A DNA stretch of 64,000 nt from Octopus sinensis. Taxonomy: Eukaryota. Each line of letters opens with the position of its first letter. The stretch's first letter is position 1. The position numbers and the translations under genes are program-made. The notes beneath the pieces were generated by a model, which saw nothing but the letters and a program-made list of their open reading frames with translations, ran no database searches and was not told where the DNA came from. Below are positions 1,814-63,519 of this stretch, piece after piece. Where the stretch lies: assembly GCF_006345805.1 (NCBI RefSeq), contig NC_043007.1:76198001-76262000 (forward strand), in the 5' to 3' direction.

Positions 1814-3876
1814 ACACATGCATACATACATACATAGTTTGCTGTTCTGTAAAGTTAAGATAGACAGTAAATGTATTGCATTCATTGAGAGATTTAATAT
1901 GCATTGAATCTTAGAAAGAGCTATTAATATTTTGATGCCAGTAAGAAACGTGGTTACACTGGCTTTAAGAACATGCCTTCAATCTCCAAGCAATCTCAAC
2001 CTGTGAGCTCAAGACTATGGTCCATGGAAAATCAACAGAAAGAATGGGATAGTTGACGCAAAAAATAATTAATGGTCAATTTCCTTATTTTCATAAATCA
2101 ATTAAGAATGACAGAAGCCCGAAGCAATTTTTGACACCACTGACCTCTAATATATATGTAAATAGCTATTGTGGTATATTGCTCAATGGTTGATGTATAT
2201 GATACAGACGAATTCTGGAGAGAAATAAAGGGCATTAAGATTCAAATGCATAAATTCCTTTCGAAAATATGCATATTAGTAGCATGTTAGAAATTATATA
2301 GATAATAATGATAAGTATAATAGAAAAAAAAAGAGATAAGCCAAACCCCAGGATACAATATATCCATAGATTACCTAATTATCCTTCATATATTATAGGT
2401 AATCTAGTTAGAAATATTTCTACCAGTATTTTTTAATTGTCGGCTAACAAACAACTAGTAAACTATAACGAAAAGTATTGGGTATCATGGATAAGATTAA
2501 GTACATTCCTCTAGAGGAAAAATCAATATTCTTCATAGACAAAGAAATGGTAATAATAATTCATACAATCTTTCTATTCAAATCCGATAAAGGAAAACAT
2601 TCTATGTAAATAAATATTTGATTTACGGAGTACCAAAACTCATATCGCGACTGATAGTTATGTCTATAAATTCGTAACAACTGAATATGAAAATAGCAAA
2701 ATTACAAGCCCAGATAATTATGAACGTGTAGGCTGATAATAAACAGTTTTTCGTGTAAAGCTAACACAAACAATAAATACATCAAATAATATAACAATAA
2801 AGAGGATGAAACCTAGGATTATATTCAAAAAGAAACCCGAATTTAACCTAGTTAGTTATTCTGTATATAAAATTGGAAAGGATACAACTGGTCCTCATTG
2901 AATATATATAGTTCAGTATAACTTCAGATGATGGTATGAAGTTAATGGTATTGGAGGTAGAAGTAGTAAAATTATAGGAGAATGATTAACATTCTCTGAT
3001 GATAACAAGAAATGAAGTATTTTTAAAGTGTTGACCTACAGATAAATAAGACATACAGGGACGTATACCATTATATCATCATTTACTTGGAAAAAGATGT
3101 TAAGTTGAATATGTTACCTGAGACAAGGTGATCTTGGAATGCCCCTAATTATCACAGTCATTCGGCTGCGTCTTGGTAATTCCATAATTAATCTATGCAC
3201 CTGTAAATAATAGAAATGATATAAGCCATGTAAACAATGATTGGCATCTATTTTGAAACGGTTCTCCTACATTTAATGTTACGAAATAGTTGTAAACAGA
3301 TAATATGCGACAAAAAAAAATGTACTTCGTGGTAAACCGAAAAACGTATTTATGTATTCCTATAATGATACTAAAGCACTTATACTGACTGTGACACTGA
3401 ACTTTACTTAAGAAGTGAATTGATTGAATTGATCATTGCAAGCACATCGTTCATTAGTGATATATATATTTTCTTGTGAATGTTTTCAGAGGTACTTTTC
3501 TAGATATGCTGTTCATGGAAGGACTGTTTACTCTCCACAAGACATCCTCTAATGAATAGATTGTTTCTACAGAGTCTGGTATCCGAAGAGCAATATAGCC
3601 TCCTCACAGTTATGTCTGAAAAACGTTTAATTCTAATTATTTTGTTCCTCGAGGAATAAATATCCTGATATTTTCATCCACCTTTGCATTATATACACAT
3701 AACAGTGCACATGTGAATTCTTACGACGTGGGTATATGGAATCCTAGTTTGTCGGGATTACATGTATTCATATCCAGGCGCTCGCATATACATTACACAA
3801 ACGTACATGTAAACACACGACACAAAGACATACATTCAAGTGCAACAATATGTCTGACCATATTCATACATGCAGA

Positions 3877-6820: not shown

Positions 6821-7799
6821 GACTGAAGTGTTTTGACCAGTATATCTTTCATAATAATTCGAAATTAGCTACGCAGAAAACAAAATAATGCACTTTCTCT
6901 GGATTAGTTGTGCTCTTCCTCTCGACGAGCTTACACATGGCACAAATATTTGTAACTGGTGTTCACGAAAAAACATCAGAGAAAGCTTCAGGTCAAATTA
7001 TAAATTCTCACCAATATAATAAGTATATTCCTAAAGTTTGTCATTTTCACTTTTTATCTTTTGTTTGATTCAGGACTATGTTTATTGACTTACATACATT
7101 TATTAACCATAATCTAGTGACGTTTATGAATGATCTCCTAAAAAGATGTAAGGCATCATATTCTCAAGTTAAATATAACAATGAAGGGTTGCGTTCATAA
7201 CTTTCACCAAAGTTTTGGAACAACTTCAAATACAAATCGGAACACGACTTCTGTAATTGGCATTTATAGATTTTGTAAGCTCACTGTCTCACATCTAGGG
7301 TATTATTCCAATAAATATTTGTATGTACAATTTGCACAAAAATGAATTGCGATTCATTAAAGTAAGTTCTATCTATGTCTTATTGTAGGAATTTCGTCTA
7401 AACGAACGTTCAATGGGATTGAAACCAGAATGTACTAAAGAGCTAACGGAATTTTAATTGCTACAACAAAGTGTGTCTAGTGATTCACCGATTCTGCCAT
7501 ACAAAAATACACACACATATTCTGATTCATAATCTCACTAGAATCTAATGCAGATATTTGTCATGTAAGAGAATATCAAAGGAATATCACAAGATACGAG
7601 AAATGCAAAAACGTCTTTCTTAATTAAAGTAACTTGAAAATCCTTGTGATGTATTGAAATTCTCGGATAAGCTCTGGAAAATCTGTTGAAAAGGAAATGA
7701 TCTTCTGCTTTCAAGTAGATCAAAACTTACGTTTTATACAGGTTAAATAGTGCCAAAGGAACAAAACGGTATTATTTAAATTCAATAGTTAGTCTATTA

Positions 7800-9561: not shown

Positions 9562-10777
9562 GTAACTGAATAGCTCGTCGTTGTTAAGAAATTTTTACAA
9601 TAGAATATCTTATATAAAATTTTATTTATTCTATGTCAGATCATGCCTTCCCCGACAGATAAGCCTTTTGATCAGGACAGATTTGTACAATTTTTTGCCA
9701 AAAGACTTCGTTGAGGATTTTATTTTATATTAAAATTATTTATATATCTGTTCGACGGTTTCACACGACTTTGATCATTAAAAGTTCAGAAATCTTACAA
9801 CTCTGGTCGTCGTAGTGCTTTGCTTTCGTTCGTTTAATAAAAATTCTTCTTCCTAAGGATTTTGCTTTCATTTCATGAAAGATAGCTATCATGCAGAAAA
9901 TGCCAGCTCCAAATTCTGTTTTCTGATTAGGTGAGATTGATTAAACTTTAAACCTCAGTAACATTTTTCAACAATTTTTTGAAACAAATAAGTAACAAAA
10001 TAGGATTAATCGGATTTAATGTAGAAAATTATTTCAATATACTAAATTTGAAAATTTTGACGTAATTTTAGAGTTTCAGAATATGTGACAGCAACAGGGA
10101 AAACCCTACAAGAGTAGACACATAGACAGTTATAGGATGTGACATAGAATATTCGGACACATGTATATATATATGTGCTCGTAAAAGGTTTACAATTACA
10201 GCCCTACCATAGTATCCAGCATTATGCAGCTCAAGACGAACGGTTTTGTTTGACGCAGGATTGACAAGGTCGTAATTTATCTCTCCTGTCACTGTTGCCG
10301 CCATGCTTCGATGATTTTACACACAATATATTTCCCTATTGTGCAGTCTGTCCCTATGAGTTTCGCTTTCCATCGCCTGTTTTTGCCAAAAAAGTGAAGG
10401 AATGGAATTGCTAACATCAAAAAACATTTAGTACGATTTGTCTTTATTTTCAAGTGTATCATAGCAAAGGTTGTATAAGAGTGTATAATGTACAAATTTA
10501 CATACGAATATGAATTAAATCATATAGTTTCTCCTTTACAAACAGTCGACTAACGCTGTTAGCTCGCTGTGGATGATGTAACAGTCGAGAATCCATAAAT
10601 ACGCATTTGTTCACTTCAGTAATATCATTTTACTGGAGAAATACAATGAGAAATTAATCACATTGTTTAGAACAGTTCATATGCAACATTGTATATAAAG
10701 GAAATGATCACCGAAACCGGCAATTAGTGATAGTAAGAACATGTACTCGAATACATACAAAGTAGGATAGACATATT

Positions 10778-12884: not shown

Positions 12885-13529
12885 GTATTTATAATTAAAT
12901 ATTCATTGACTGAATTTCTCCACTTTTTTGTTACTCTCGTTTTGCATGCATACATATATACATATTTTGTATTTCATATCCGAGCTGTTATAATATTTGA
13001 TACATCTAATTTGTCTATCTGAATAATCGTCAATTGCCTCTATACATATTTGTGCGTGAGTGCATGCATATATGTTTGCATGTTTTTGTATATATATATA
13101 TATGTATATATATTTATATAGACATGAATTGTTAATGAGGACAGGGAAGAAATACCCCGAAACACAATGACCCTACGCATATCAGTTACTATGATATTAT
13201 ATGATATATATAACTGGAACCGGATCAACGCTAGAAATCTATAAAATAATTTATAAGAATTAAAATGAAAAGAATTCAGTCTATTTACATCCAGTGTTGA
13301 TAAATCAAAACTTACATCCGACAAATAATTTTCGTCATAAGCACCCACTGTGGAGATGAATATTTGGTTATGCTGTATACTAGTGGAAGAAGGAGAGAAA
13401 ATAGACAAGTATATCGGCTGATATCCATTGCCTTTCCTTTAGAGATAGTGACGTGGCGTAAATATACACGTAAGAAATATCCGGTAAGTACTAAACATGC
13501 GTTCGCTCACTTCCGGATCGGTCGCACGC

Positions 13530-30974: not shown

Positions 30975-31038
<64 letters not shown>

Positions 31039-33125: not shown

Positions 33126-33949
33126 AATCATTTTAATTTTCTCGAGCGTCAAACTAATACACTTGCTTGATGTTCATACTCCTGTCGTCACCTTTTGTTT
33201 TCCTATAAATTTCAACTATGTATGAGTGTGTGTGTGTGTGGCTGTGTATGTGCCTGTGTGATTATATATATGTATATGCATTTTTCTTCTCATCTCTATA
33301 TATATGTACGAGTGTGTGTGTGCCTGTATGTGTGTCTGTGTCTGTCTGTCTGTGTCTGTGCCACTTTGCGTGTTTATGTGATATGTGGTATAGATAATAA
33401 AATACGTTAAATCTAGTCTGTATAATCAGTTTAGTGCTGTTCAGTTCCTCCTCTAAAAACATTTGGAGAAAATACAAGTTTCACACACAGGAAGTATACA
33501 TTCATAGGGCTTCTAGAGAATTCTTACAAGCGTAGGTATATAGATAAATATATATTTCTCGATATATTTTTACTTACTATTTCGTCTTTGATTTAGATTT
33601 TACATCGAAAGGGGATAATTGTTTTTGTTATGACAGTGTAAACAATCAATTAAGGAAGCAATATATAGCATACACTAAACCAAACTCTAATACAGACTTT
33701 GGTTATCAGCGAGCAGGTTTTATAACAATGGTGAAACATATTTTTAAATTGAAATGGCTTATGTTTGAGTGTGTTTGGCGTTCAGTGTTTGGTTAATCCT
33801 TTATAAAATGTCTCGAGAAATTGTAAGTCTGTAAATGAACTGGTTATAAAACTGAATTAGTGTAAAAAAATTAACAAGTGTAAAAACAAAATAAAAGCGT
33901 AGCTTGTTAGTATGATTAAGTTCAGTTTTATTGCAGCATATTTCCAAAT

Positions 33950-34810: not shown

Positions 34811-34825
34811 GATCGAAGATATAGT

Positions 34826-36781: not shown

Positions 36782-37686
36782 CTCTACTTTTAGTAATTGT
36801 TTCTATTCTATGAACTGCAAAGAGTTACGAAATATTTTAGTGTTAGTTATTTTCTCTGAGCATAGTAGGAGGAGGACAGGCAGTTTTAAACAAAGGTTCA
36901 CTTAATTTCCACGCCAAAAACCTCAATATGGTTCAGTACCTCTAGTCGTTTCACTCCGGCATACCCTATATTCTTGTAGCTGTGGCTATAATTACCATTA
37001 AAAGAAACCTAAATTGTACGGGAAAAGCTACAATTAATTTCCTTAAAATCAAAACTTTTATGAATATAATAAGAAAAGCATCATAAATTTGAAACATATT
37101 GCTTTTTATTTGAGATCTAAGCCCATAACAAACGAGACCTCCATACCAGCAAGTTTGAGCAAAGTGGTGTAGTAGAAGCTGAAAAATAAAATCCAGTCTG
37201 ATGTGATCAGTTGGACATGCCTCGCCCCATTCTTCAAAAATTCATATAAAAATTCATTGTAAGGATTAAAATTTCTATTTATAGATTTAGGTAAAATCGA
37301 ACGTTAAGTGGGATCAAGCAGTACAAGGAATCCTGATGTCACTACATTAGGTTTGTCACTCGCAGAATGGCAATTCTTCATATGTCCCTATTCCTCTAAG
37401 AACTTCACTTTCCAAAGAAATCTACGTAAGCTGAAGTCAAAGAGATTTTACTCGCGCAGACGAAATACAATCTGAACTGTCTACTAAGTTTGGTAAGGTT
37501 CTATGAACTACACTTGCAAATGGAAGCAACACAAATTTGATAACAATGTCTATGTGTAGGTATATATGTATAATTATGAAGTTTGATTACAAGCTTCATC
37601 TTGCCCAGTTACACCACCTGCCTTCATGGACAAGTGCATACCACCGTGCACCTCGCGTTCAGTAATATGCGTGATGTGTGCTAGGA

Positions 37687-38659: not shown

Positions 38660-39250
38660 TAATGCGGTTTTTTCAACAGCTTGAACTAAAAGTCAGAGGG
38701 GAATGGGATAAACTACTTATATTAACTTGCTATAAAAGCAGGTAGTAATTTTATCTTGTCCTTATTCATAGTGCAAGTTTTGAAGAGTGCATTTCGATTT
38801 TAACAGCTATTTTTTTCAAAGCTATGTTGGAAGTAACAAAGGAGCATATTTGGCATATTTTGCTTTATGAGTTCAATAAAGATAACAACGCAACGGAAAG
38901 TACAAGAAATATTAATGCAGTATATGGGGATTGGACAATAAGCGTAAGGCAGTGTCAATGGTGGTTCCAGAAATTCCGAGCCATAAACTACAGCCTAGAA
39001 GACGAGCTTCATCCTGAAAGATCTGTAGAACTTGACAAGGACATCCTGAAAACCCTGGTGGAACAAAATCTCATCGTAACTGTTGAGGAACTAGCAGAGA
39101 AGCTTGGATTTGTCATTCAACCATTCATTGAGACCTGTGTGCTATCGGAAAAGTCAGCAAATTGGGTCAATGGGTTCCTCACGAACTTTCCGAGTCTAAT
39201 TGCATGCAGAGAGTGAATGTATGCTTTTCTTTGCTGTCACATCTCACCAC
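38660..39250 (+). mobile_element. Mariner 5' half (HTH domain)
   Basis: ORF 38824-39216 reads HILLYEFNK..NATESTRNINAVYG...WFQKFRA..YSLEDE. Same family as 6255-6820. Confidence 0.9.
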
Positions 39251-40389: not shown

Positions 40390-40699
40390 ATATCAAGGGT
40401 ACATCAATACAGATATATATATGCACAGCAAACGATGAGGCAATTTCCGTTGCCTCATCAATTAAGCCCACTCGATATTCGCCTTTTTATGGATTTGCTT
40501 ATCTATTAGTATACATATATATTTTTTTCATCCAAATTAGTAGATGATTTAGCGATTTGTTCATGTATATGCTTAAAATTAACATGAACAGTAAGTTGCA
40601 ATGTTTCACCAAAAAAGACAATTTTAATGTCACTAAATACGACTAGGGTGTTAATAAACGCCTACATTGCTAGAAATAAGAGTTAAAATTCTCTAATGC

Positions 40700-43237: not shown

Positions 43238-44542
43238 AATGCATACATACATACATAGTTTGCTGTTCTGTAAAGTTAAGATAGACAGTAAATGTATTGC
43301 ATTCATTGAGAGATTTAATATGCATTGAATCTTAGAAAGAGCTATTAATATTTTGATGCCAGTAAGAAACGTGGTTACACTGGCTTTAAGAACATGCCTT
43401 CAATCTCCAAGCAATCTCAACCTGTGAGCTCAAGACAATGGTCCATGGAAAACCAACAGAAAAAAATGGGATAGTTGACGCAAAAAATAATTAATGGTCA
43501 ATTTCCTTATTTTCATAAATCAATTAAGAATGACAGAAGTCCGAAGCAATTTTTGACACCACTGGCCTCTAATATATATGTAAATAGCTATTGTGGTATA
43601 TTGTTCAATGGTTGATGTATATGATACAGACGAATTCTGGAGAGAAATAAAGGGCATCAAGACTCAAATGCATAAATTCCTTTCGAAAATATGCATATTA
43701 ATAGCATGTTAGAAATTATATAGATAATAATGATAAGTATAATAGAAAATAAAAAAAAGAGATAAGCCAAACCACAGGATACAATATATACATAGATTAC
43801 CTAATTATCTTTCATCTATTATAGGTAATCTAGTTAGAAATATTTCTCCCAGTATTTTTTAATTGTCGGCTAACAAACAACTAGTAAACTATAACGAAAA
43901 GTATTGGGTATCATGGATAAGATTAAGTACATTCCTCTAGAGGAAAAATCAATATTCTTCATAGACAAAGAAATTGTAATAATAATTCATACAATCTTTT
44001 TATTCAAATCCGATAAAGGAAAGCATTCTATGTAAATTAAAATTTGATTTACGGACTACCAAAACTCATATCACGACTGATAGTTATGTCTATAAATTCG
44101 TAACAACTGAATAGGAAAATATCAAAATTACAAGCCCAGATAATTATGAACGTGTAGGCTGATAATAAACAGTTTTTCCTGTAAAGCTAACACAAACAAT
44201 AAATACATCAAATAATATAACAATAAAGAGGATGAACCTAGGATTATATGCAAAAAGAAACCCGAATTTAACCTAGTTAGTTATTCTGTATATAATATTG
44301 GAAAGGATACAACTGGTCCTCATTGAATATATATAGTTCAGTATAACTTCAGATGATGGTATGAAGTTAATGGTATTGGAGGTAGAAGTAGTAAAATTAT
44401 AGGAGAATGATTAACATTCTCTGATGATAACAAGGAATGAAGTATTTTTAAAGTGTAGACCTACAGATAAATAAGACATACAGGGACGTATACCATTATA
44501 TCATCATTTACTTGGAAAAAGATGTTAAGTTGAATATGTTAC

Positions 44543-44625
44543 CTGAGACAAGGTGATCATGGAATGCACTTAACTATCACAGTCATTCGGCTGCGTCTTG
44601 GTAATTCCATAATTAATTTATACAT
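44543..44625 (-). other. Candidate 83-nt exon (copy A at 3118-3200)
   Basis: Acceptor atttctattatttacag and donor cag|gtaaca. Open in one frame in copy A (VHRLIMELPRRSRMTVIIRGIPRSPCL); that frame has a stop in copy B. Confidence 0.35.
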
Positions 44626-44959
44626 CTGTAAATAATAGAAATGATATAAGCCATGTAAACAATGATTGGCATCTATTTTGAAACAGATTTCCTACATTTA
44701 ATGTTACGAAATTGTTGTAAACAGACAATATGCGACAAAAAAAATGTACTTCGTGGTAAACCGAAAAACGTATTCATGTATTCCTATAATGATACTACAG
44801 CACTTATACTGACTGTGACACTGAACTTTACTTAAGAAGTGAATTGATTGAATTGATCATTGCAAGCACATCGTTCATTAGTGATTTATATATTTTCTTG
44901 TGAATGTTTTCAGGGGTAATTTTCTAGATATGCTGTTCATGGAACGACTGTTTACTCAC

Positions 44960-45039
44960 CACAAGACATCCTCTAATGAACAGATTGTTTCTACAGAGTC
45001 TGGTATCCGAAGAGCAATATAGCCTCCTCACAGTTATGT
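44960..45039 (-). other. Candidate 80-nt exon (copy A at 3536-3615, donor mutated)
   Basis: Acceptor gtttttcag and donor gtg|gtgagt. One open frame: ITVRRLYCSSDTRLCRNNLFIRGCLV. Confidence 0.4.
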
Positions 45040-45602
45040 CTGAAAAACTTTTAATTCTAATTATTTATAAAATATTCTGATATTTTCACCCACCTTTGCA
45101 TTATATACACATAGCAATGCACTTGTGAATTCTTACGACGGGGGTATATGGAATCCTAGTTTGTCGGGATTACATGTACACATATCCAGGCGCTCGCATA
45201 TACATTACACAAACGTACATGTAAACACACGATACAAAGACATACATTCAGGTGCAACAATATGTCTGTCCATATTAATACATGCAGGACGTATGTATGT
45301 ATGCATGTATGTATGTATGTATGTATGTATGTATGTATATATGTATTTATTATGTATGTATGTATGTATGTATGTATGTATGTATGTATGCATGTATATA
45401 TGTATACGTAAGTATTTATCAGTGAATGCTTTTTCTATAAACAAAAATCGTTTGTATGTGCAAACATGGTTGTACCGGATGTACACGCATAGTTTCTTTT
45501 GCGTATAACGTTATGCATGACAACTAATTATTTGCGTGTACATCCATATACACACGATGTCAATCTATTTACTTTTTATATTTTTATACTTATGTAAATA
45601 GA

Positions 45603-46325
45603 CTAGCAAACACACCTGTCCTTTGGACAGTTTAAGTTGCTATTTGAAACAATGGACAGCAGTCGAAATATCATAATGGCTGGGTAAAGAAGCATCTTTA
45701 ATGTTAAACAACGGTATCAAAGGTAAAAAAAAGGTATCACCAGTCGGAAGAGAGGGAAGGGAACATCACCTTTCAAATAACTCTGAATAGGTATAGGTAA
45801 GCTTGCCAAAGTTTAATGTAGTTTGAATATGTAGATTAAGTTAGTTTGGTATTGGATATTCATCACGTATAGTTTTCCTAGTCAACTGAATCACCGTCGT
45901 AAGTGGACAACAGAAATAAATGGACGAAATCCTTTCACTTTTATAAAAAGATTAAAAAGAAAATGAGGGCAAAAGGCACTCGTCTTTTCACAATGAAAAA
46001 TCGTTTCGCAGTAGCCGGAATTTCGCGACAAATTGTATGTTTATTAAGCACAACAGCCTGCAGTGCATGCCGCTAGGCATTAAAAGCCAATCGTACAAAC
46101 CTAGAAGGGTTCTAGGCCCCCTTGAATCGATAAAAAATCACTTTTTCCCAAAGCAACCACATCATTATAATTTGCGAATTTTAACCGTCGCGGCTCTCAT
46201 CCAAACCACGCATTTAGTATCCCTGCTAATTTTCAGCTCGATCCTAGCTTAGGGTGTGCCGCCATTAACCGTCAAAGCGAAATGTGCATACAATTTTCGT
46301 CCAAGGACTGTTTTATAGATATAGA
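45603..46325 (-). mobile_element. Non-autonomous Helitron, copy B
   Basis: Same termini as 4153-4859. Confidence 0.75.
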
Positions 46326-49035
46326 AAATATAAGGCTACTGTTGTTCCCTTATTATTATCTCCCTACACTACATATAACTCTAATTCCACCACAATTATA
46401 CTCAACTACTTTTCATTATTATTAAATACAACTTTCCACACCATTCCATAGATATTATATATATTTTATATATATAGATATTATATATGTTTTTAGCAGC
46501 GGATAATGTAAATAAATTTTCTCGCGTCTTCAATAATTTTAATTTCTTATTTTTAATTCTTATTTAAAATTTTATTTTTTATTTTTATTTTTGTCTTATT
46601 AACTGTCTACAACTTCATAGATACGTAATATTACACTTACTTTTTCTGTAAAAATTGGACATAATATTTACAAGTCATTTTAATTATACATACATCTACC
46701 ATCCTGTTTCCGCAGCCTTTCCCTTCGACGATTCTTTACAAACAATACACAATGCTTCAGGCAAACTACAATACTCTCCTATCTCTACGCCTGGGCCAGG
46801 CCGAGTTCGCGACCGATAGGGAATTGATCAAGCTATCTGAGAAACGTGCAAATTTCGGATGCCAAATAAACTTTCTTAAACGCTGCTTAAAAATCAACAT
46901 GATTCCCAACACCATCAGGATCATACATCTACCCTCGTACTTCCTTGCCCTTCGACGATTCATTACAAACAATACACTATGCTTCAAGCGAACTACAATA
47001 CTCTCCTATATTAATTATTAATTTTATATACCAGAAACCATATATGGTTACTATCAAGCACTTTTTTCTAATTAATTACTAAACCGTACTGATTATTGAC
47101 GGTTAAACATATATCCTAGTCTCTAGTATTTCATAATTCTTTATTTCCTTATTTGGTTTGTCTTTTCCTTAAAATACTGTCTCACCATTTTTTACTTCAT
47201 ATATGGGAGTTTTAAATTAGCTCCTTTATACAAATCTATTGAGAGTATATTATCCTTATTAGTATTATATATATCAACACCCAAGTGTTATCTTTTCGTC
47301 TAGTTTAAATAGACATGACTCCAAGAACAATAACACATTACAAAAGGAGTAATAACACCATACCTATGTAATTATAACGTCTTTTTAGCTATTTTCTTAT
47401 TTTTGGGTTACTGACCAGTACGTTTTGGCAACTCAGATTTTTAAAATGAATTTAATGCCTTTTTGGACGAAGCGATCGTATAGTTACATGAATAAAAAAA
47501 CATCATCCATATTAACATCTAATCTCCTCCGTTTACGCAAAATATGAATGAATTTGTTGAAATTTGTTTAATAAGTTAAATCTTTTACTTAATGTATCTA
47601 TATAACTTTTTATATCTACGCTAATTTACACTAGAAAATTCAAAGTAAAATATGAAGAAACAATGTTAGAAATCTTTTTGGAAATTACTCCAATTAAAGG
47701 ACGAATTCGCATTATCGTTTGGTTAGGCTTTAAAAGGTCAAAGTGGACTAAACTTGTCATATCCCACCAAACATAACACAAAACCTTACGTGGGTGCTTA
47801 ATGTCATCGGTGCTTGACATTTTTATAGAGAACCCATTTCTTGTCACCAGTCACTATTCGGTGGGAAAACGGTTCATTCGTGAGACGTGACAGAAAATAA
47901 GAGCACATAAGCACTCTCTGCGCGCGATTAGATTCGGGAAGTTTGTGAAGAACCTGTTGACCCAATTTGCTGACTTTTCCAATAGCCAAATCCAAGCTTC
48001 TCTGCTAGTTTCTCAATAGTTATGATGGGATTTTTTTCTACCAGGGTTTGCAGGACGTCCTCATCGAGCTCAACAGATATTCCAGGATGAGGCTCGTCTT
48101 CTAGGCTGTGGGTTCCGGCTCAGAATTTCTAGAACTACCGTTGACACTGGCTTATGCTTATTGTCTGATTCTATATACTAGATTAATATTCTTCGCGTTT
48201 TCAGTTGCATTGTTGCCTTTATTTAACTCATAAAGCAAAATATGCCGAATATGAAGTCTGAAGTGTTTTGGCTAGTATATCTTTCATAATAATTCGAAAT
48301 TAGCTACGCAGAAAAAAAATAATGCAATTTCTCTGGATTAGTTGTGCTCTTCCTCTCGACGAGATTACACATGACACAAATATTTGTAACTGGTATTCAC
48401 GAAAAACCATCAGAGAAAGCTTCAGGTCAAATTATAAATTCTCACCAATATAATAAGTATATTCCTAAAGTATCTTTTGTTTGATTCAGAACTATGTTTA
48501 TTGACTTACATACATTTATTAACCATAACCTAGTGACGTTTATGAATGATCTCCTAAAAAGATGTAAGGCATCATATTCTCAAGTTAAATATAACAATGA
48601 AGGGTTGCGTTCATAACTTTCACCAAAGTTTTGGAACAACTTCAAATACAAATCGGAACACGACTTCTGTAATTGGCATTTATAGATTTTGTAATCTCAC
48701 TGTCCCACATCTAGGGTATTATTCCAATAAATATTTGTATGTACAATTTGCACAAAAATGAATTGCGATTCATTAAAGTAAGTTCTATCTATGTCTTATT
48801 GTAGGAATTTCGTCTAACCGAACGTTCAATGGGATTGAAACCAGAATGTACTAAAGAGCTAACGAAATTTTAATTGCTACAACAAAGTGTGTCTAATGAT
48901 TCACCGATTCTGCCATACAAAAATACACACATATATTCTGATTCATAATCTCACTAGAATCTAATGCAGATATTTGTCATGTAAGAGAATATCAAAGGAA
49001 TATCACAAGATACGAGAAATGCAAAAACGTCTTAC

Positions 49036-49098
49036 TGGATTAAAGTCACTTGAAAATCCTTCTGATGTATTGAAATTCTCGGATAAGCTCTGGAAAAT
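49036..49098 (-). other. Candidate 63-nt exon, paralog 1 (copy A at 7620-7682, donor mutated)
   Basis: Acceptor tcatttccttttcaacag and donor gtaaga. Reads FSRAYPRISIHQKDFQVTLI. Confidence 0.5.
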
Positions 49099-51229
49099 CT
49101 GTTGAAAAGGAAATGATCTTCTGCTTTCAAGTAGATCAAAACTTACGTTTTATACAGGTTAAATAGTGCCAAAGGAACAAAACGGCATTAATTAAATTCA
49201 ATAGTTAGTCTATTAGGCGCAGTTGTGGCTAATAAGTAGCTTCTTCCCAGTCACATAATTCCGAGTTCAGTCCTACTTCATGGCACCTTGGACATGTTTT
49301 CTACTACAGTTTCGGGCCGACCATAACCTTGTGAGTGGATTTAGTAGACGGAAACCAAAAGAAGCTCGTCGTATATATATATATCTTCTTTATGTATGTG
49401 TGTGTTTGTATGTGTGTGTGTGTGTCCCACACCACCATTACCACCACCATCACTTGATAACAGCTGCTGGTGAGTTTATGTAACTTAGCGGTTCGGCAAA
49501 AGAGACCAACATAATAAGTACTAGGCTTACAAAGAATAAGACATGGGGTTTATTTCTTTGACTAAAACACTTTAAGGCGGTACTCCAGCATGGCCACAGT
49601 CAAATGATTGAAACAAATAAAAGAACATCATGAAAAGTTGACTAACAATGATAGCACGTTGTCACTTATGTGATACTGGGGAGATGTGGAGCATATATTT
49701 TAGGATTTAAACATGAGTTTGTTCACATTCTAAAATGATTTTACTCGAAAATCATTCTCAGAAATTAAGCAAGTTATTTAGAGCATTTAACATATATAGT
49801 AAAATGGTTAGAATGGTAAATCAAATCAGCTAATATTTTATATAGTGACAAAAGAATGGCGTACTCGAATATACACAAAGTATCAAACTGATGTTGTTTT
49901 CCGTACATAGAAAAGGCACATCTAATGAATATACGAGATGGTATGACAAAGATCACGGACTTTGTCATACCATCTCGCATATTCGTTCTGTAGCGCGCCA
50001 ACGAATAACACACAGTTGCGTGTGCAGTGAGAGCTAACACTGACTTTCATGAGGCAGTGCGCCGAGTGATACCTATTTCTTTATTGCCCACAAGAGGCTA
50101 AACACAGAGGGGACAAACAAGGACAGACATAGGTATTAAGTCGATTAGATCGACCCCACACAATATATTTCACTACTGTGCAGTCTGACCCTATGAGTTT
50201 CGCTTTCCATCGCCTGTTTTTGCCGAAAAAGTGAAGGAATGGAATTGCTAACATCAAAAAACATTTAGTACGTTTTGTGTGCGCATCTTGTTAAAAGGCC
50301 TCAGTTGGTCAACTGCTACCAGTTTTTTACCGTATACTCAGAAAAGTCATATTGGTGTGAGAACTTCAGTAAGCGCGGAGTGTATTCTACTAAACCTCTC
50401 CATCCAATCCACATACTTGGCAATCTCTCATCAATATAGACCATTACATCACTATGGTAGTGTGGAGTTGCGCTATACACCTGGAAATAAACTCTAGTTT
50501 CAAAGTCCTCTTCAATACTTTGCATTACATATTTTGCAGCAAGTTCAAGCAAATGGAACCAGTTAGAGTGAAAAATGAATGTTCCAATTAATCTTATTCA
50601 TGATAAGTCTCACCTTAACGTAAGTCTTGCATTTTATTATGATGTTCCTCCACAATGCCCAAATGCTCAGGCTTTGTAGAAACAATTATGGTGATTAGTT
50701 GAACTCTTTCATTTATATGTAATACCATCAGTCCAAATATTATCCTTAGAAAGTGGGTACCTTCCACCCATCTTGCCAAGTACAACAAGCAAAACCCTAT
50801 ACTTCGGGCCGGCTCATATCAATTAAAGCACTATAAATTTCGATGGATACTTGAGAAATTCCTATCTCACGACTGTTTGCCGTAAGAACTGTGACGATAC
50901 GCTTCTTCTTGTACACTTTCTTACTTTGCGAGCCCATCGATGAGTACCGTCGACTGGAAAGTTTCATGCAGACATTCTGAACATTTCCACCAGTATACTT
51001 ATCTGTAATTCGAATACTGCTGAGTCGCGTCCGTGGGTCTGTTTGACATACTTTACAAAATTACCTTTGCACTTCGATTATTTTATAATAATCATAAATT
51101 ATTCGTAAATAATTAAGTTCAACCAGTGACCCAAACACCGTCTTTTACAGTATCTGTAAATAGTTATATTGTACAATGTAAATTCTCCAGTATATATATT
51201 TATATATAAGTATTTTGTCGTTGGTATTA

Positions 51230-51905
51230 GGCGGCGAGATGGCAGAAACGTTAGCACTGGGGTCGATCTAATCGACTTAATTCCTTTGTCTGACCTAATT
51301 TGTCCCGTCTATGTTTAGCCACTTGTGGGCAATAAAGAAATAAGAAACGATAGCACTCCAGGCGAAATGCTAAGCGGTATTTCGTCTGCCGTTACGTTCT
51401 GAGTTCAAATTCCGCCGAGGTCGACTTTGCCTTTCAGCATTTCGGGGTCGATAAATTAAGTACCAGTTACGCACTGGGGTCGATCTAATCGACTTAATCC
51501 GTTTGTCTATCCTTGTTTGTTCTCTCTGTGTTTAGCCTCTTGTGGGTAGCAAAGAAATAGGTATTTCGTCTGCCGTACGTTCTGAGTTAAATTCCGCCGA
51601 GGTCAACTTTGCGTTTCATCCTTTCGGGGTCGATTAAATAAGTACCAATTACGCACTGGGGTCGATATAATAGACTTAATCCGATTGTCTGTCCTTGTTT
51701 GTCCCTTCTGTGTGTAGCCCCTTGTGGACTGTAAAGAAATAGGTATTTCGTCTGTCTATTTTCTGAGTTCAAATTCCAGCGAGGTTTGACTTTTCCTTTC
51801 ATCCTATCAGGGTCGTTAAATTAAGTACCTATTGCGTACTGGGGTCGATCTAATCGACTGGCCCCCTCCCCAAAATTTCGGGCCATGAGCCTAATAGAAA
51901 AGAAT
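51230..51905 (+). mobile_element. Nested/tandem array of SINE family 1 copies
   Basis: The SINE 3' body occurs four times. Junction duplications agaaacg.tagcact and ggtatttcgtctg. Confidence 0.92.
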
Positions 51906-52305
51906 ATTTTGTCATCGATATAATTTATGATGATAGGATGATAAACGTGACAAATCCTGTAAATTAGTGAACAATATATCAATTTAATTATTACCTCAAG
52001 TGATGGCAAAGGGGAAAATAAATAATAAGCATATGTAGTTTTATTTAAAAAATAAAGACATCCAAATATAAGGAAAGAAACATGTTAGTGAAGAGAGTGA
52101 TGTGTTTTCTCAGCTGTAATAGACTATACTTATTTTTCAATAACATATTCATCACATGAAATGGTGAGTAATAGCATGTTAATGGGAACGAGAATATCAC
52201 TTGATACGAAATTTATTTCTATAAAATTTATAACTTCGAAAAATTGCGATGATTTATAAAAAGTGACATACAAAATGAAAGGAAAGATATTAAAAAACAA
52301 CTTAC

Positions 52306-52368
52306 TTCCGGACGGTTAGCCAAAGGAAATTCTGTTGACGGTAGAACAGGCTCCAAATTCTTGAGAAT
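52306..52368 (-). other. Candidate 63-nt exon, paralog 2
   Basis: Acceptor tcatttctttctcaacag and donor gtaagt. Reads FSRIWSLFYRQQNFLWLTVR. Confidence 0.55.
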
Positions 52369-54771
52369 CTGTTGAGAAAGAAATGAACTTTTGTAGACAA
52401 TTTAAACGCAAAAGTTCATGAGTTAAATTATATAGTTACTCTTTCAGAAACACCTTACTGACACTGGTGGTATGCTGCTACTGGATATAAGTCGAAAGTA
52501 CTCTCTAAGATTGAAGCACAAGTTCGTTCATTTCAGTAATAATATTTGACAGGAGGTATACTTTCAGAAACTATGCACGTTATTTAGAACTTTATATATA
52601 CAGTTGAAATCATTTGCCCTGCAGATATCAACATAATATTAAAGGTTTTGAAAAATCTGCAAGTGCAAAAATTTTTAATTTGTACTAATAACTACTGAAG
52701 ATATTAACTGTGTGCCAAAGTGTAACGGTAATACACCTGAGAAGTTGGAAGTCACAAAACCAAAAATGTCACCTGCATTTAAATTTCGGCTCCTGGTCGT
52801 TAATGGTGATAAATTATGTAAAATATAATTCATATTTGCAATGCCATCCATTCCTGTATCAGTCATCTATTCCTGTATCAGTGCGTACATGTTCAGTTAC
52901 ATACATGGGCTTGAACAATACGTCGAGGAATTGACCCGAACAGGTTCTGAAATGTTTTAAGGGGAATTTTGAGTCATTCTTTAAGTAAACACATATCTAG
53001 CTCTTTCAAGCGACGATGGGACAGGGAAGCATCTCCTCTCCTGTTGCTCCAAAATTCTGCATAAATGTTCGTTTTTAGTGAGCTCCAGTGATCTCAATAT
53101 AATCGAACTGGGAATTTGAATGTAGTCATATCTCTCTAAAAGATAGAATATTTACCTTTCCTTTCAAATCTGCCATGGTAAATGAAATGAGAACGCAGAA
53201 AGTGAAAAGACATGCAGTCGTGCTACCACATTTACAGAACACAGTTATTTAGAAATAGGAAACTTCCTAAACGTAGCAAGATCTTTTCTACACAATGTCC
53301 CAATAAAATTAAAAGCATCGGGCGGGAATGTTTCAACTGTAGGAAACAGAAAAACTTCTAAGACTTCTAAATTCTCGGTCACCATATAAAACCACAATTC
53401 ATCCAACGGATTGAAAGCATTTTCCACGAACTGGGAACATCGAAGTGGACCACTGCTTAAGAACTTCAGATGTTAGAATGGATTATCAAAACATTCGTTG
53501 TACTGAGTTGCGGCCAATTCATATTTGCAAAAGCACAAATTAACCGTTTGATTTGTGCCAAGGCATACTTAACAAGGTTTAAAAAAAACCAAGAATATGC
53601 TATGCTTTTATTCTTCTCTGATTAGATAAACGTTGACTAAGGCCAAAAGTGTAACAGAGGAAATGACAGATGGTATGTCCAGATGCTTCTGATCTCTCTA
53701 CATTGAACTACTACGTTTGGAACGTTGTTAAAAGGGCGATTATTTGATATCTCTACAATGCCAATGCTATACGGAAGGTCTCTATTGCCTGCAGATTCCA
53801 CAGCATCTGTAGGTTCCACACAGAATGTATCTGCTTTTATTGAATGATGAGGACAAATTTCAACTATTCTCATGCTGAGCTTAGACCGATGAGTACTCAT
53901 GTGTTCATGTCAAGATATATGTAAACTTACCTTTCTTCATTTTATCTTTTAACTCATATCCTTACTAATTTTGTTTCCGGGTTTTTATTACTTTACTTTG
54001 TCATGTATTCACTGTGAAATATAGCCAGAGCCATTTACCGGTTATAACCCGGAAATTGTTTCTATCCTCTATCAGTATAGTCAACTACTTACTGGCGACT
54101 ACAACATGCCAAGCGAAACCAAGTATATTTAGCGAAGTATCTTATTTAAAACGAGACAGCCAACGAGATGCATTCTGCACTTAATGATGCAACGCAACTA
54201 GCTGTACAATGTCCTATCCGCAAGGGATGCAGGATGGGTCGAAACAATTGTTGTTTTCAATAATGATTTTTTACAACTCCATTTTCCGTTCCCCTCATTC
54301 ACTATAGACTCAACAAAAACGGCAGAATTCTCGACAAAGATCCAGTGACACTTATATCATAAGTGTGGATGACATCAGATACTCTAAACTGTGAAAGTCC
54401 TTTAATCAGAATACTATATACACAAGGTCCAAATAATTATTTGTTTGTTTGTGTGTGTGTGTGCATGAGTGTGTGTGCGTGGGTGCGTGCGTACGTGCGT
54501 GCGTGTTGTGTGTGTGTGTGTGTGTGCGTATTTTGTGTGTGTGTGAGTGTGATTGTATGTGTAATCATGTAAAATACCGAACAAAATGAATTTAGGTTGA
54601 ACCTGAAATACTGAGAAAAGTGAAAATAAATAAGCGTTAGTAATTTTATTTTAAAAATACATCCAAACCACTCTGGCTAAAGAAACCTGTCAGCCAAATT
54701 GTAAATAATTATAATAAATGTTAGATTAATGGTAAATTAAAATAAATGATAGAAATCCCAAAACGACTTAC

Positions 54772-54836
54772 GTCCGAGATGTTATGCACAATTGGTTCTG
54801 GTCTCGGGGTGATGACACGAGAAATTTCTTAATCGA
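54772..54836 (-). other. Candidate 65-nt exon, paralog 3
   Basis: Acceptor cattttctttctcaacag and donor gtaagt. Reads KKFLVSSPRDQNQLCITSR. Confidence 0.5.
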
Positions 54837-55209
54837 CTGTTGAGAAAGAAAATGTCTTTATTTTCAAGTGCATCATAGCAAAGGCTTTATAAGAGTGTAT
54901 GATGTACAAATTTACATACGAATATGAATTAAATCATATAGTTTCTCCTTTACAAACAGTCGACTAACGCTGTTAGCGCGCTGTGGATGATGTAACAGTC
55001 GAGAATCCATAAATACGCATATGTTCTCTTCAGTAATATCATTTTACTGGAGAAATACAATGAGAAATTAATCACATTGTTTAGAACAGTTCATATGCAA
55101 CATTATATATAAAGGAAATGATCACTGAAACCGGCAATTAGTGATAGTAAGAACATGTACTCGAATACATACAAAGTAGGACAGACATATTTCTATCTAT
55201 CTATCTATC

Positions 55210-55277
<68 letters not shown>

Positions 55278-55684
55278 GAAGAGACTGTTGTGCAGTTGAA
55301 ATGGCTTGCCCAAAAGCAGTCGACGTATTATATTAAAGCTTAGTCAGAAAGAGAACATCGGTGCCAAAGAGAATAGGAATTTTCAGGAGCTCCATCTGGG
55401 TTATAAATTCCTACCAATAACCATTGCAAAATTTATCTCCATAGCTAACTGCCTAAGTTCCAAAGTGAGGTGTTGGAATTCCACAAAACCTGAAAATATA
55501 CGTTTATTCAGAAGATTTCAGTTCCAAGCTGCCACAGGTACCGTCAAACTATATAAAATAGAAATAACATCAATGCCTGTGCCGTAGCATACATGTTCAC
55601 ACACACACACACACACACACACAGACATACACATACACACACACACACATACATACACGCACGCACACACACACACACAGACAT

Positions 55685-55735
<51 letters not shown>

Positions 55736-56390
55736 AATCTTTTGCGTAATGAGATAAAAACCAAGGTTATGTAGATAGAACATTTATAGATAGAAGGTTT
55801 GCAGGATATTTATTAATTATATCACGTCATCGGAGACGGTGTGAGAGGATACAAAATAGGGAGTGGGGTGGAGAAAAGAAAATAGATGTAAGATATGTAG
55901 GAATATTGAAGTTATAGATCCATTTTTTAGGCAGAATGGTATATATGTAAATTTCCAATACCCTATGGGTAAAATCCAACAGAATTTAAAATGGCTCCTT
56001 CCAATTATAGAGTTTATACACAATGTAAGATTCCAATACCTTATGAGTGAGATCCAGTGATGCCGGTGATTGACTACGTCGTGTGAATGGTGTATCATCC
56101 CCAAAAGCTTCTTTCATTTCATCGAAAATCTATTTTGGTGTACGATCTTTCTTGTATAAGAACTTGATCGCGGATGTGCATTCAACTTCCTCCATTATAA
56201 TACCTTAGTCCATTTCAGCAACCATAACAGACGGATGAATACCAGTGGAAAGCTGCAATTTACAATGTGACATCTAGAGACAAGTATGTTTACTTGTCAA
56301 GACCTGTTTGAGTTCCGTATCCGGCAATAACCGGAAGTGAGTCAAGGGAAATCTTTAATGAACACCCCTGGAGTGTGTGTGTGTGTGTGA

Positions 56391-56444
<54 letters not shown>

Positions 56445-57621
56445 TTTTTGTGTGTGTGATTGTGTGTGTGTGTGTACCTGTATGTATGAAAGTATGTATA
56501 TATATATGCCTGTATATGTGTGTGTGTGATCCATAGATGAGACCCAGAGATTCTCACTATGGAGAACATTTAGTTGTGCTCAAATGATTCAAACATACAC
56601 TGATGTATTTAAAGGAAACCCTCTCCACGGGATAAGCAATGACTAAACGTGTGATAAAGTTGACCAGATTTAGAGGCAGTTATTAGAAGTATTAAATATA
56701 GCAATTTTGATATGACCTACAAAATATGTATATATGTATGCATGCAAAACGAGAGAAAGCGAAGTGAAGACTTTCAGATTATGAATATTTAAGTATAAAT
56801 AGACAGATATTAATATTAATAGATACAACTTACACAGAGAACAAACGACAGAGGAAATTAAAGGGTTGGAAGAAAGGTATTATACGCCCAACAGTTGCTG
56901 GAATTATAAAACCTTTATTCCTGACACTTTAATTTTTGTCTGTCATCTTTACTGTATGTAAGTTAGATCTATTAAAGTAAATATCTGCGTATTTATTATT
57001 AAATATTCATTGACTGAATTTCTCCAATTTTTTTTTACTCTCGTTTTGCATGCATACATATATACATATTTTGTATTTCATATCCGAACTGTTATAATAT
57101 TTGATACATCTAATTTGTCTATCTGAATAATCGTCAATTGCCTCTATATATATTTGTGCGTGAGTGCATGCATATATGTTTGCATGTTTATATATATATA
57201 TATATATATATATAGACATGAATTGGTAATGGGGACCGAGAAGGAATACCCCGAAACACAATGATTCTATGCATATCAGTAATTATGATATTATATGATA
57301 TATATAACTGGAACCGAATCAAAGCTAGAAATCTATAAAATAATTTATAAGAATTAAAATGAAAAGAATTCAGTCTATTTACATCCAGTGTTGGTATATC
57401 AAAACTTACATGCGAGAAAACATTTTTTCGGTGAAAGTAAGACACTTTTGCAGGTGAACTATTGGTTATGCTGTATACTAGTGGGAGAAGAAGAGAAAAT
57501 AGACAAGTATATCGGCTGATTTCCATTGCCTTTCCTTTAGAGATGTTTTACTGTCTATGGTACCACACTGATAGTGACGTGGCGTAAATATACACGTCAG
57601 AAATATCCGGTAAGTACTAAA

Positions 57622-57782
57622 CGTAGACTCATCGTAGACGCGCGATAATACCCAGACGGGCTCGATATGACTCACGACTATACGATACCCGGTTTTGGTT
57701 AAACAGCACCGCAAAATGTGGGAGTAGTTAGGAATCTAAATCGTAGGAGACAGACACACAACTTAACTTTTATATATAAAGA
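57622..57782 (-). mobile_element. 5' terminal fragment of the Helitron family seen at 39267-39903
   Basis: Reverse complement of ~39267-39431, with the A|TC end intact. Confidence 0.9.
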
Positions 57783-59640
57783 TATTACATGATTTAAGAA
57801 GTTTAATTTAATATTATTAAATAAATAATTAAATAAATTAAATAAATATATTAATTAATGATAGTAGTGTTGTGTTTGCAATTCTGTATGTGATTTGAGT
57901 ATTAGTCAATAAGAGTTAGTAAAAGTTCTGTAAATACTTATTAGTTAGATTTTATTTAGATGTTTATTTTATTATCAAATATTTAATGTGTTTAATGAAT
58001 ACAGATTAACTGATGGTTTATAATTTTGAATGTATAGAATAATAATTTTTTTCTTTATGTAATACATTTTTATAATGATAAAATGTACTTTATTTATTCA
58101 ATTAAAGAACGAAGTATTTGATCTAAATACAAATTAGTTTACCTATATAATAACTTTAATTTATTATTGTTTTGCATTTGTTTTGAGTATTAATATGATA
58201 TATAATATATATTTATTTTATACTACAGTCAAGTATATAGTTTGTAATAAATTTGTTAAATTAATGAATATGTATGTATTTTTTATATATTTCGAAGTAG
58301 ATTTATTTAGATGTTTATTTAATTAATACTATAAAATGAATTTTATTAAAATATAGTTTTATATTAATTAGTGGTCATAATATAGATAATGTTTGAATTA
58401 CTACTGAATTGATTTTGAATGTGTCTAATAGTTATTTTTTTATTTTATTTAAATAAATTTTGACTACAACGTAACCTTTTTTTATATAAAATTAATTAAT
58501 TTTTATAAGATTTTTAGAGTATATACAGTAGTTGGTAGTTATATAAATTATTTAATTTATAGTGTATTGAGTATAATTTATTGTAGTTATTTTTAATTAT
58601 AAATTTTATAGTATATAGTGATTTTATTCTCTAATAGTGACTTTCTTCTCTTTATCTATTATAACTAAAATATAGCCGTAATTTCCATTGACAATATATA
58701 TTCATAATTTTCATTGCTAAAATATATTCGTGGCTTTCATTTTTAAAAGAATTTTCCATCTGTTTATTCTATTTCTGTTAATAACGTAATTCCATGGGGA
58801 TTCGTATAAACGCTTAAAAGACGTTTTCCGTTTTAAAATTGTAGTTAACGACACGATTTTTGAAAGCTAAGTAAACCTTTTCTATTTAAGATTTTTGCAG
58901 ATATTTAATAAGTTTTATTGAATTGTATTGTATTGTATAACTACTGATTGTTAATTTGATTCTGTAATTATTTAGTTGTTGATGATATGTATTTACTTAT
59001 TAGATTATAACTATACGTTACTTGTAAGATATTACTTAGCCAACGAGATATATAGATCGTAAAATAGTTATACGATTCTTTTAAGATAAGTTATACGTAT
59101 ATAATTTGATTTTTAATCAATTTTTTTTACGCATTTCATAAATATATTATATTAATATTTAATATTTATGTAAGTAATAATGTACTAATTAATTTATCAT
59201 CTTCATAGATAAATACATATTTCTATCTATTTTTTTTACCTTAACAATAAATATTTAACATAATAAATGGCGTGTATGACATAATCCTAATGTTTTATGT
59301 TTCTAATTTAGACAATGGAGTTATTTTTATAAGAAAATTTATTATGTTATTTATTTCTTAAAGAATATTGTTTAACTCTGCTTTTTTATTTAATTATTAT
59401 CCTTAACCTGAAGATTGACTATAATTTTAGTTTGAATTTATTTCAATTGAATTTAAACTTAATTGTAATTCGAATTTAAAAATAAAAAAATTTTTTAAAT
59501 TAATTTTTATATTTTATATATATGTATTATACATTACGTCAATTATATTTATATTATTTATATAATTTGTTATTTATGTATGGGTTTATGTCTATCACTG
59601 TTTGAGTTGCCTAATAGTAGTTTTATCTCTAATTCATATT
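57783..59640 (+). mobile_element. 3' remnant of the Naiad-type Penelope element, copy B
   Basis: Matches 25813-28481. Confidence 0.88.
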
Positions 59641-60046
59641 TTATATATTATACTGTGAAATTTGATTTAATCCTAAATCTAATATTTCCCTGTAAGTTTG
59701 GAGCCAAACTCCCTAATATTATTATATATACACCCCCACACACACACATATATATATTTATATATATATATACTCTCTCTCTCTCTTACTATATATATAT
59801 ATAATTAATAATATATATGTAATTAAAAGTATTAATAAGGAACTCATGATACGTAGGTAATCGTTATATTTTATAAATTTTCATTTGATTTGCTCATTTT
59901 TTACATTTTGGCATTTGCTGGTAAGGCGATTTGACGTCTATCTCTAGCGTATAGGAATCCACTTTTGTAGTCATTCCTCTCATCAACTGTAATATATATA
60001 TACATACATGCACTTTAAAGGGCCCGCACACACAAACACTCACACG

Positions 60047-60091
<45 letters not shown>

Positions 60092-63000: not shown

Positions 63001-63519
63001 TTCAGTGTGTCTGTGTACAGTGGGATTCAGTGGATCTGGAACGCAATTTGTAGAACAAAGTATTTTCGAGATATGAAATATCGATCCGATTTGTAACTGA
63101 ATTCTCATCTGTAGAGGACAGAATCTTTGCTCGAGTTGTTTTCAACAGAATAATAACTCACTTGGGAAACCATGTTTACCCTGAATCTTTAGAGCTGGGA
63201 GAGAAACTATTGACATGATATATATATATATATATATATATATGTTACTTGCCGCAAGTTACAGAGGAAGTACGGGAGAAGAGTGAAATATTTATGGTCT
63301 TTGATGACTTATCAAAGGGTTTTGTTTTTGTCTGTTGATTCTTTGTGGTCAAGAGATTGGGATTCTTAACAAAATGCCCAGTGTTATAACTGGGCAATTT
63401 GTTCCATGCAACACATACAAGCTTCTGTTAAGTCAGGTAGCACTTCGTCAGATCCTCTACTGCAAAAGGTTTGACAAAGAATTGGTGCATAATGGCTCTT
63501 GTTTAGTCTTCTGTTTATT

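What the first reader, a model, noticed from the sequence alone, without database searches (positions are those of the whole stretch)
49036..54855. Three paralogous 63-65 nt exon-like cassettes in tandem on the minus strand
Seen: 49036-49098, 52306-52368 and 54772-54836 each follow a near-identical acceptor (cattt..ttt.tcaacag) and end in GTAAG. In the frame that leaves 2 nt at the donor they read FSRAYPRISIHQKDFQVTLI, FSRIWSLFYRQQNFLWLTVR and KKFLVSSPRDQNQLCITSR. Paralogs 1 and 2 share FSR; paralogs 2 and 3 share R.QN.L..T.R. Flanking intron motifs also recur, for example gaatatcac..gatacga. Splice signals and length are better kept than the exon interiors. Inference: a mutually exclusive exon cluster or an exon-repeat gene of a fast-evolving family that I cannot name. 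The 65-nt copy would be frameshifted.
Basis: partly seen in the sequence, partly recalled or inferred. Interest (0 to 1): 0.72.

Follow-up and report, generated by a model that had tools for sequence, protein, structure and literature searches.

The report
TMED10-derived exon repeats in galectin chimeras
These three short exons are recycled copies of the first exon of the housekeeping gene TMED10, sitting in a likely dead member of a fast-evolving octopus gene cluster that joins TMED10's signal-peptide exon to a galectin domain, which would make a normally leaderless lectin secreted.

Summary
They belong to 27 related units in a 644-kb stretch. All derive from exon 1 (promoter, ATG, signal peptide, donor) of an intact TMED10 gene about 135 kb away. 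In the cassettes the ATG decayed and a new acceptor arose inside the old coding exon, leaving a phase-0 internal exon that was then copied in tandem. The genes read: TMED10-type signal-peptide exon, 0-11 cassettes, three exons of a galectin domain taken from a canonical galectin on the same contig. Galectin exons of close paralogs show dN/dS near 3. The copy in the finding has a 1-nt frameshift, a stop codon and no middle galectin exon, so it is likely a recent pseudogene; a sister copy on C11089 is fully open. No spliced junction was seen in my data; chaining of cassettes rests on a database gene model and on anatomy. No paper describing this was found.

The parts
57575..57583 (-). GCCACGTCA promoter motif, homologous to GCCACGTTA upstream of TMED10; perfect in 5 of 5 first exons of the A/B/C type, in 0 of 17 cassettes
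   Evidence: reading it as a UPRE/CRE-like site is recalled, untested
57383..57526 (-). Gene C exon 1: ATG, predicted signal peptide ending VYS, phase-0 donor (second in-frame donor at 57409); derived from TMED10 exon 1
54837..54993 (-). Dead 5' part of the duplicated exon 1 (old promoter, ATG decayed to ATA, old signal-peptide codons), now intron and acceptor
   Evidence: (E 3.2e-12 to a first-exon-only model)
54772..54836 (-). Cassette 3, 65 nt, 1 nt short of its 66-nt in-frame counterpart on C11089; frameshifts gene C
52369..52483 (-). Dead 5' part of duplicated exon 1 with an internal deletion
   Evidence: (E 1.9e-7)
52306..52368 (-). Cassette 2, 63 nt, phase 0-0, open in frame 0; acceptor lost in the C11089 copy
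49099..49215 (-). Dead 5' part of duplicated exon 1
   Evidence: z 7.3 against TMED10; E 3.7e-5
49036..49098 (-). Cassette 1, 63 nt, phase 0-0, open in frame 0
44543..44625 (-). Galectin exon G1 (83 nt, phase 0-2) with an in-frame TGA at codon 23; open in the three sister copies
36901..37008 (-). Galectin last exon G3, open; the middle exon G2 is missing between G1 and G3 in this copy
13289..13428 (-). Gene C' exon 1 in the tandem segmental duplicate, frameshifted
10440..10579 (-). Truncated cassette-3 unit of gene C' (cut at the acceptor)
7620..7682 (-). Cassette 1 of gene C', donor lost (GAAAG)
3118..3200 (-). Galectin exon G1 of gene C', open; its G2 and G3 lie just left of the window and are open

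Best explanation
The three cassettes are tandem phase-0 exon copies derived from TMED10 exon 1, lying between a TMED10-type signal-peptide exon and galectin exons in a gene copy that is likely a recent pseudogene of a family predicted to encode secreted lectins on a repeat stalk. History: TMED10 exon 1 with its promoter was duplicated and joined in phase 0 to the last domain of a two-domain galectin (gene D still has this simple form); an internal copy of exon 1 lost its ATG and gained an acceptor where TMED10 has GAA GAA, leaving a 72-nt internal exon; this unit multiplied and whole genes duplicated. Function (inferred): cassettes are spliced in series into a flexible or partly helical stalk of variable length; the signal peptide sends the lectin through the ER; the lectin domain is under diversifying selection, most likely in defence or surface recognition. 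Shown: homology, anatomy, galectin fold, dN/dS, lesions. Inferred: order of events, splicing in series, secretion, sugar binding, role.
For: Parent is TMED10: PDB E 2.5e-12, named homologs, five intact exons. The unit at window 78112 aligns end to end with TMED10 exon 1 from promoter to donor (z 27.8, 0 of 300 shuffles); 9 of 17 cassettes beat all shuffles directly; a model built from first exons only finds all three cassettes of the finding; alignment. 13 of 13 cassettes tested form one branch (94/92). No copies of TMED10 exons 2-5 in 644 kb. Tail is galectin: PF00337 36.3 bits over cut-off 22.1 for the C11089 middle exon, PDB galectins E 1e-10, all listed Foldseek hits for gene A are galectins. 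Donor: DNA of G1, G2 and G3 with flanks matches C11:53.88-53.90 Mb, same intron phases. Database model P0048 joins the TMED10-like exon directly to the galectin exons; P0038 chains 11 cassettes in frame 0. dN/dS of galectin exons 3.4, 3.1 and 29 nonsynonymous to 0 synonymous in three paralog pairs, Fisher p 0.006, 0.0009, 0.0002. Relatives beside TMED10 in two other Octopus species.
Against: No spliced junction for any cassette was observed by me. The database models are predictions whose read support I could not see, and P0038 does not start at the signal-peptide exon I assign to gene A. Cassettes 2 and 3 alone do not align significantly to TMED10 pairwise (66 and 16 of 300 shuffles reach them); they need a profile. 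The protein tree places the chimeras with the proposed donor only weakly (71/92). No signal-peptide predictor was available; the call rests on homology and hydrophobicity. Several sugar-binding residues are changed, most in gene A. The three dN/dS pairs share sequences and are pairwise counts, not a site model. Cassettes show no clear excess of nonsynonymous change between C and C11089. The lesions of gene C could partly be assembly error in a tandem duplication.
Confidence: 0.72

Rival explanations
1. The cassettes are a mutually exclusive exon cluster: one cassette per transcript between exon 1 and G1.
For: Similar length, same phase, tandem paralogous internal exons, which is the profile used to nominate candidates (PMC5740500, passages). 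One-at-a-time use would also bypass the 65-nt frameshift.
Against: No enforcing feature: lengths divide by 3 (16 of 17), shortest intron 357 nt, gene C introns 2.4-4.4 kb, no docking duplex above shuffles in 4 of 4 tests (9, 20, 25, 21 of 30 shuffles reach the observed score). The conserved upstream motifs are explained as TMED10 promoter remnants. Models P0038 and P0039 join neighbouring cassettes.
Confidence: 0.1
2. The units are alternative first exons with their own promoters, each spliced to the constant galectin exons, as in protocadherin or UGT1 clusters (comparison recalled).
For: Every unit descends from a promoter plus first exon; 3 of 17 cassettes (161257, 162441, 173504, one recent clade) keep the ancestral ATG in frame with the cassette.
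Against: 0 of the 3 cassettes in the finding has an in-frame upstream ATG; the promoter motif has 3-4 mismatches in them; all carry a strong new acceptor.
Confidence: 0.06
3. The cassettes are never spliced in: they are decaying duplicates inside the intron of an exon 1 + galectin gene, and the acceptor was copied along passively.
For: Gene D works as a model without cassettes; cassettes are lost or disabled in C', C11089 (one), gene B (one) and at 110.8k and 169.5k; no junction seen.
Against: Frame 0 open in 15 of 17 and 16 of 17 lengths divisible by 3 despite length changes of 54-78 nt, while the upstream former exon has frame-breaking indels; acceptor and donor kept across divergences of 0.2-0.6 per site; the O. 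bimaculoides model P0040 begins with a cassette-like end joined to the same next exons.
Confidence: 0.1
4. Gene C is intact and functional; its lesions are assembly errors.
For: It lies in a 41-kb tandem duplication that is hard to assemble; its G3 exon carries the same nonsynonymous excess as the sister copies.
Against: Three separate lesions: the 1-nt loss comes with two substitutions rather than a simple run slip, a TGA and loss of about 6 kb holding G2.
Confidence: 0.2

Closest known systems
Intron gain by tandem/internal duplication with latent splice sites, and intronization (PMC3443670, passages seen)
   Same: Duplicated exonic DNA gains a splice site and part of the old exon becomes intron.
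   Different: Here the duplicated unit is a whole first exon with promoter and signal peptide, the old donor is reused, and the new internal exon was then amplified to at least 17 copies across several genes.
Galectins (PF00337), tandem-repeat type in lophotrochozoans (PMC3269628, PMC8878817, passages seen)
   Same: Galectin fold, three-exon domain with the same intron phases as the canonical galectin on this contig.
   Different: Single domain, N-terminal predicted signal peptide (galectins are defined as lacking one), repeat stalk, N-glycosylation sequons, altered sugar-binding residues.
Snail GREPs, IgSF + galectin plasma proteins (PMC5433772, passages seen)
   Same: Molluscan extracellular chimeric protein with a C-terminal galectin domain and altered binding residues.
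   Different: No Ig domains here; the N-terminus comes from TMED10; independent origin inferred.
Congerins I and II of conger eel mucus (PMC3269628, passages seen)
   Same: Duplicated galectins diversifying under positive selection.
   Different: Congerins are leaderless prototype galectins; defence role shown there, only inferred here.
TMED10 / p24 delta (PF01105)
   Same: Promoter, signal peptide and first GOLD strand sequence are the source of exon 1 and of the cassettes.
   Different: No GOLD domain, coiled coil or membrane anchor is retained. TMED proteins affect unconventional galectin secretion in mammalian cells (bioRxiv 10.1101/2025.05.04.652080, passages seen); I have no evidence that this is more than coincidence.

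Membership tests
Mutually exclusive exon cluster | Neighbouring internal exons of similar length, sequence and frame | tested here: met
Mutually exclusive exon cluster | Junction reads bridge the others and no reads join two members | tested here: inconclusive
   one search was swamped by repeats and listed no joint at these exons; database models join cassettes
Mutually exclusive exon cluster | An enforcing mechanism (donor-branch point under 50 nt, frame incompatibility, U2/U12 mix, docking/selector pairing) | tested here: not met
   criteria from PMC5740500 passages
Galectin | About 130-aa beta-sandwich domain with the family sequence profile | tested here: met
   gene C itself lacks the middle exon
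Galectin | Conserved sugar-binding residues H-N-R, V-N, W-E-R (motif recalled) | tested here: inconclusive
   C11089 copy has H-x-D-x-R, V-x-D, W-x-x-Q-x-R; C' lacks W; D lacks E and R; A lacks H and the W loop; the donor also has H-x-D-x-R
Galectin | No signal peptide, cytoplasmic synthesis | tested here: not met
   TMED10-homologous leader with hydrophobic core and invariant VYS; prediction by homology only
Galectin | Calcium-independent beta-galactoside binding | not testable with these tools
   needs an assay
TMED/p24 family | GOLD domain, coiled coil, membrane helix, cytosolic tail | tested here: not met
   no paralogs of exons 2-5 in 644 kb; 0 Pfam hits for 4 of 4 derived first exons
Dispersed transposable element | Many copies across contigs | tested here: not met
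   counts of this tool are lower bounds
GREP (VIgL) | IgSF domains upstream of the galectin domain | tested here: not met
   no Ig family in Pfam scans of P0038 and P0039; P0048 exon map
Structured RNA family | Rfam match | tested here: not met
   0 matches at gathering score

The most novel reading that the evidence does not exclude
An octopus-specific, actively diversifying repertoire of classically secreted galectins in which recycled TMED10 first exons act as a combinatorial cassette array (free skipping of phase-0 units, and in gene A some units still firing as alternative promoters), so that stalk length and leader vary per transcript while the lectin head evolves in an arms race.
Probability: 0.2. 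Interest if true: 0.85.

Novelty: new variant of a known kind. Interest (0 to 1): 0.66.

Why it matters
It is an unusually complete record of how a new gene and new exons arise: both parent genes, the simple two-part chimera, first-exon copies without an acceptor, cassettes with an acceptor and dead copies all sit on one contig. It would give galectins, defined as leaderless, a borrowed route through the ER, and it points to an unstudied octopus lectin family under positive selection. The copy in the finding itself is probably dead, which lowers its own weight.

Tried and rejected
Expression: no RNA holder listed. Laying 3 guessed-RNA runs and 1 other run on the region was dominated by repeats; 15 joints of about 1,220 were shown, none at the cassettes; exon 1 was outside the stretch laid; 2 of the 3 guessed-RNA runs had no cover over the cassette-2 and G1 bins. 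The non-RNA run neither confirms nor refutes the 1-nt loss: its contig stops where the 65- and 66-nt forms part, and its contigs match neither assembled copy exactly. My first idea that the 63 nt equal the last 63 nt of TMED10 exon 1 was dropped: the alignment puts the acceptor 72 nt from the donor. Search for downstream GOLD exons: none. Docking/selector pairing: none above shuffles. Rfam: none. The stalk gave no usable Atlas hit, pLDDT under 50 and only a sub-threshold LED-repeat match. PDB search with P0039 alone found nothing. No annotated protein for gene C or the C11089 copy was found (word-limited searches). Four look-ups of earlier findings were empty. Literature searches with no describing paper: (main text only; supplements not searched).
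Full report
Observation. The three cassettes are at the stated places with Y-rich TCAACAG acceptors and GTAAG donors, well beyond chance (3 observed, mean 0.02 in 300 shuffles). The window is G000:C11:76198001-76262000 and holds a tandem duplication of about 41 kb. I examined 644 kb around it, the whole of contig C11089 and three galectin loci. Coordinates below continue the window numbering beyond its ends.

A larger family. A profile of cassette plus flanks finds 27 units at E under 0.001 in the 644 kb; 17 have both splice sites. I left out units without an acceptor or donor (7.7k, 10.5k, 90.7k, 169.5k) and first-exon types. The 65-nt cassette is 66 nt and in frame on C11089. Genome searches keep the units on C11 and C11089; the dispersed hits cover only an upstream repeat.

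Origin of the cassettes. The profile also hits an intact exon at -85143 that is exon 1 of TMED10 (PDB E 2.5e-12; named homologs; five exons mapped). The unit at 78112 aligns to it from promoter to donor (z 27.8), and 9 of 17 cassettes beat all 300 shuffles pairwise; cassettes 2 and 3 of the finding do not, but a model built only from first exons finds all three (E 3.2e-12, 1.9e-7, 3.7e-5). In the alignment TMED10's AACTATG has become AACTATA or AACTATT, and the codons for Cys-Leu-Arg-Glu-Glu have become the pyrimidine tract and CAACAG, so the cassette begins at the Ile of I-H-K-D-L-L-V, in the TMED10 frame, and ends at the old donor. The conserved upstream 'intron motifs' are therefore old promoter and signal-peptide sequence. 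Thirteen cassettes tested form one branch (94/92, below the starred bar), sister to the first exons of genes A, B and C, with gene D nearer TMED10 when rooted on TMED10, consistent with a single gain of the acceptor.

The genes. First exons with ATG, hydrophobic core and invariant VYS lie at 189638 (A), 84184 (B), 57526 (C, the finding), -51152 (D, plus strand) and on C11089. No TMED10 exons 2-5 follow them. Database model P0038 (XP_036362891) chains 11 cassettes of gene A in frame 0 and ends in three exons, though it starts at another 5' exon than the one I assign. These three exons encode a galectin domain: Pfam over cut-off for the C11089 and D middle exons, sub-threshold for gene A, PDB galectins by profile, a confident beta-sandwich with a low-confidence stalk and galectins as all listed fold hits. 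Model P0048 (XP_029643127) joins the TMED10-like exon directly to the galectin exons. The likely donor is the last domain of the two-domain galectin at C11:53.86-53.90 Mb: DNA of all three exons with flanks matches it, intron phases agree, its first exon starts in phase 0 like the TMED10 donor, and it is the only non-chimeric hit of 3 in a genome search; the protein tree supports this only weakly (71/92). Related models occur in O. vulgaris four accession numbers from TMED10 and in O. bimaculoides on a contig of the same length as TMED10's. My searches found none outside Octopus, which is weak evidence of absence.

State of gene C. Exon 1 is open, but cassette 3 is 1 nt short, G1 has a TGA and G2 is absent. 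C' has a frameshifted exon 1 and disabled cassettes but open galectin exons; B keeps only a broken G3; the C11089 copy is open throughout, with the cassette-2 acceptor lost. This is birth and death of genes and cassettes. Gene C is likely a recent pseudogene; assembly error is not excluded.

Selection. Between C, C' and the C11089 copy, galectin exons have dN 0.42, 0.34, 0.24 against dS 0.13, 0.11, 0 and flank divergence 0.04-0.06 (Fisher p 0.006, 0.0009, 0.0002). These are pairwise counts on overlapping pairs. Cassettes and exon 1 show no clear excess (0-6 differences per cassette between C and C11089).

Splicing mode. Nothing enforces exclusion: phase 0-0, introns of 357 nt to 11 kb, no shared docking duplex above shuffles in 4 of 4 tests (criteria from PMC5740500, passages). 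None of the three cassettes has an in-frame upstream ATG; 3 of 17 elsewhere keep the ancestral one. Direct evidence is lacking: one search showed no joint at these exons. One guessed-RNA run (X7) had a contig of depth 30.6 over exon G1 and low cover in the cassette-2 bin, a weak hint only, since the run may hold DNA. I therefore favour splicing in series, with skipping tolerated, as an inference.

Comparison. The mechanism matches imprecise intron gain by internal duplication and intronization (PMC3443670, passages). Galectins are defined as lacking a signal peptide (PMC3269628 and PMC8878817, passages); snail GREPs are plasma chimeras with Ig domains (PMC5433772, passages); congerins are galectins under positive selection; a squid haemocyte galectin is noted without such features (PMC3349304, passages). 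No paper on TMED10-galectin chimeras or these accessions was found; supplements were not searched and may list them. The sugar-binding motif and the UPRE/CRE label are recalled.

Verdict. Real exon repeats with a traceable and unusual origin, in a previously undescribed-looking family of predicted secreted galectins; new variant of known kinds; interest 0.66, held down by missing transcript evidence and by the probable death of this copy.

Noticed in passing
window 2-13496 vs 41112-57622; 25801-36007 vs 57772-63500: Tandem segmental duplication of about 41 kb at 87-96% identity; contig C11089 holds a third, gene-intact unit flanked by spacer on both sides (paralog or divergent haplotype).
   Followed up: partly
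L040:8848-9009 (+) and L042:1644-1865 (+): Gene D (XP_029643127, 'galectin-4-like'): simplest TMED10-exon-1 + galectin chimera with four N-glycosylation sequons; best target for functional work.
   Followed up: yes
L039:2364-2520 (+), L018:3989-4148 (-), window coordinate about 90.7k (+): Broken exon-1 copies without an acceptor; intermediates or orphans.
   Followed up: partly
L015-L016 (cassettes 161257, 162441, 173504): These keep the ancestral ATG in frame with the cassette through compensating indels, and use GTTGGT donors; possible alternative first exons.
   Followed up: partly
G1 and G2 exons of all chimeras: A Cys in P-C-x-R at the end of G1 is present in the chimeras but not in the donor galectin, while the F-x-C Cys of G2 is shared; a gained disulfide is possible, untested.
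   Followed up: no
window about 40400-43000 (-): Decayed pol-like fragments resembling an LTR retrotransposon (by eye, recalled motifs), shared by the duplicated units.
   Followed up: no
window 47880-48253, 38845-39247, 6445-6818: Mariner-like transposon fragments (by eye); SINE-like arrays at 50069-50158 and 51250-51860.
   Followed up: no
G000:C11:74.29-74.32 Mb, C11:53.86-53.90 Mb, C3:138.99-139.02 Mb: Canonical two-, two- and four-domain galectin genes; several domains carry H-x-D-x-R instead of H-x-N-x-R.
   Followed up: partly
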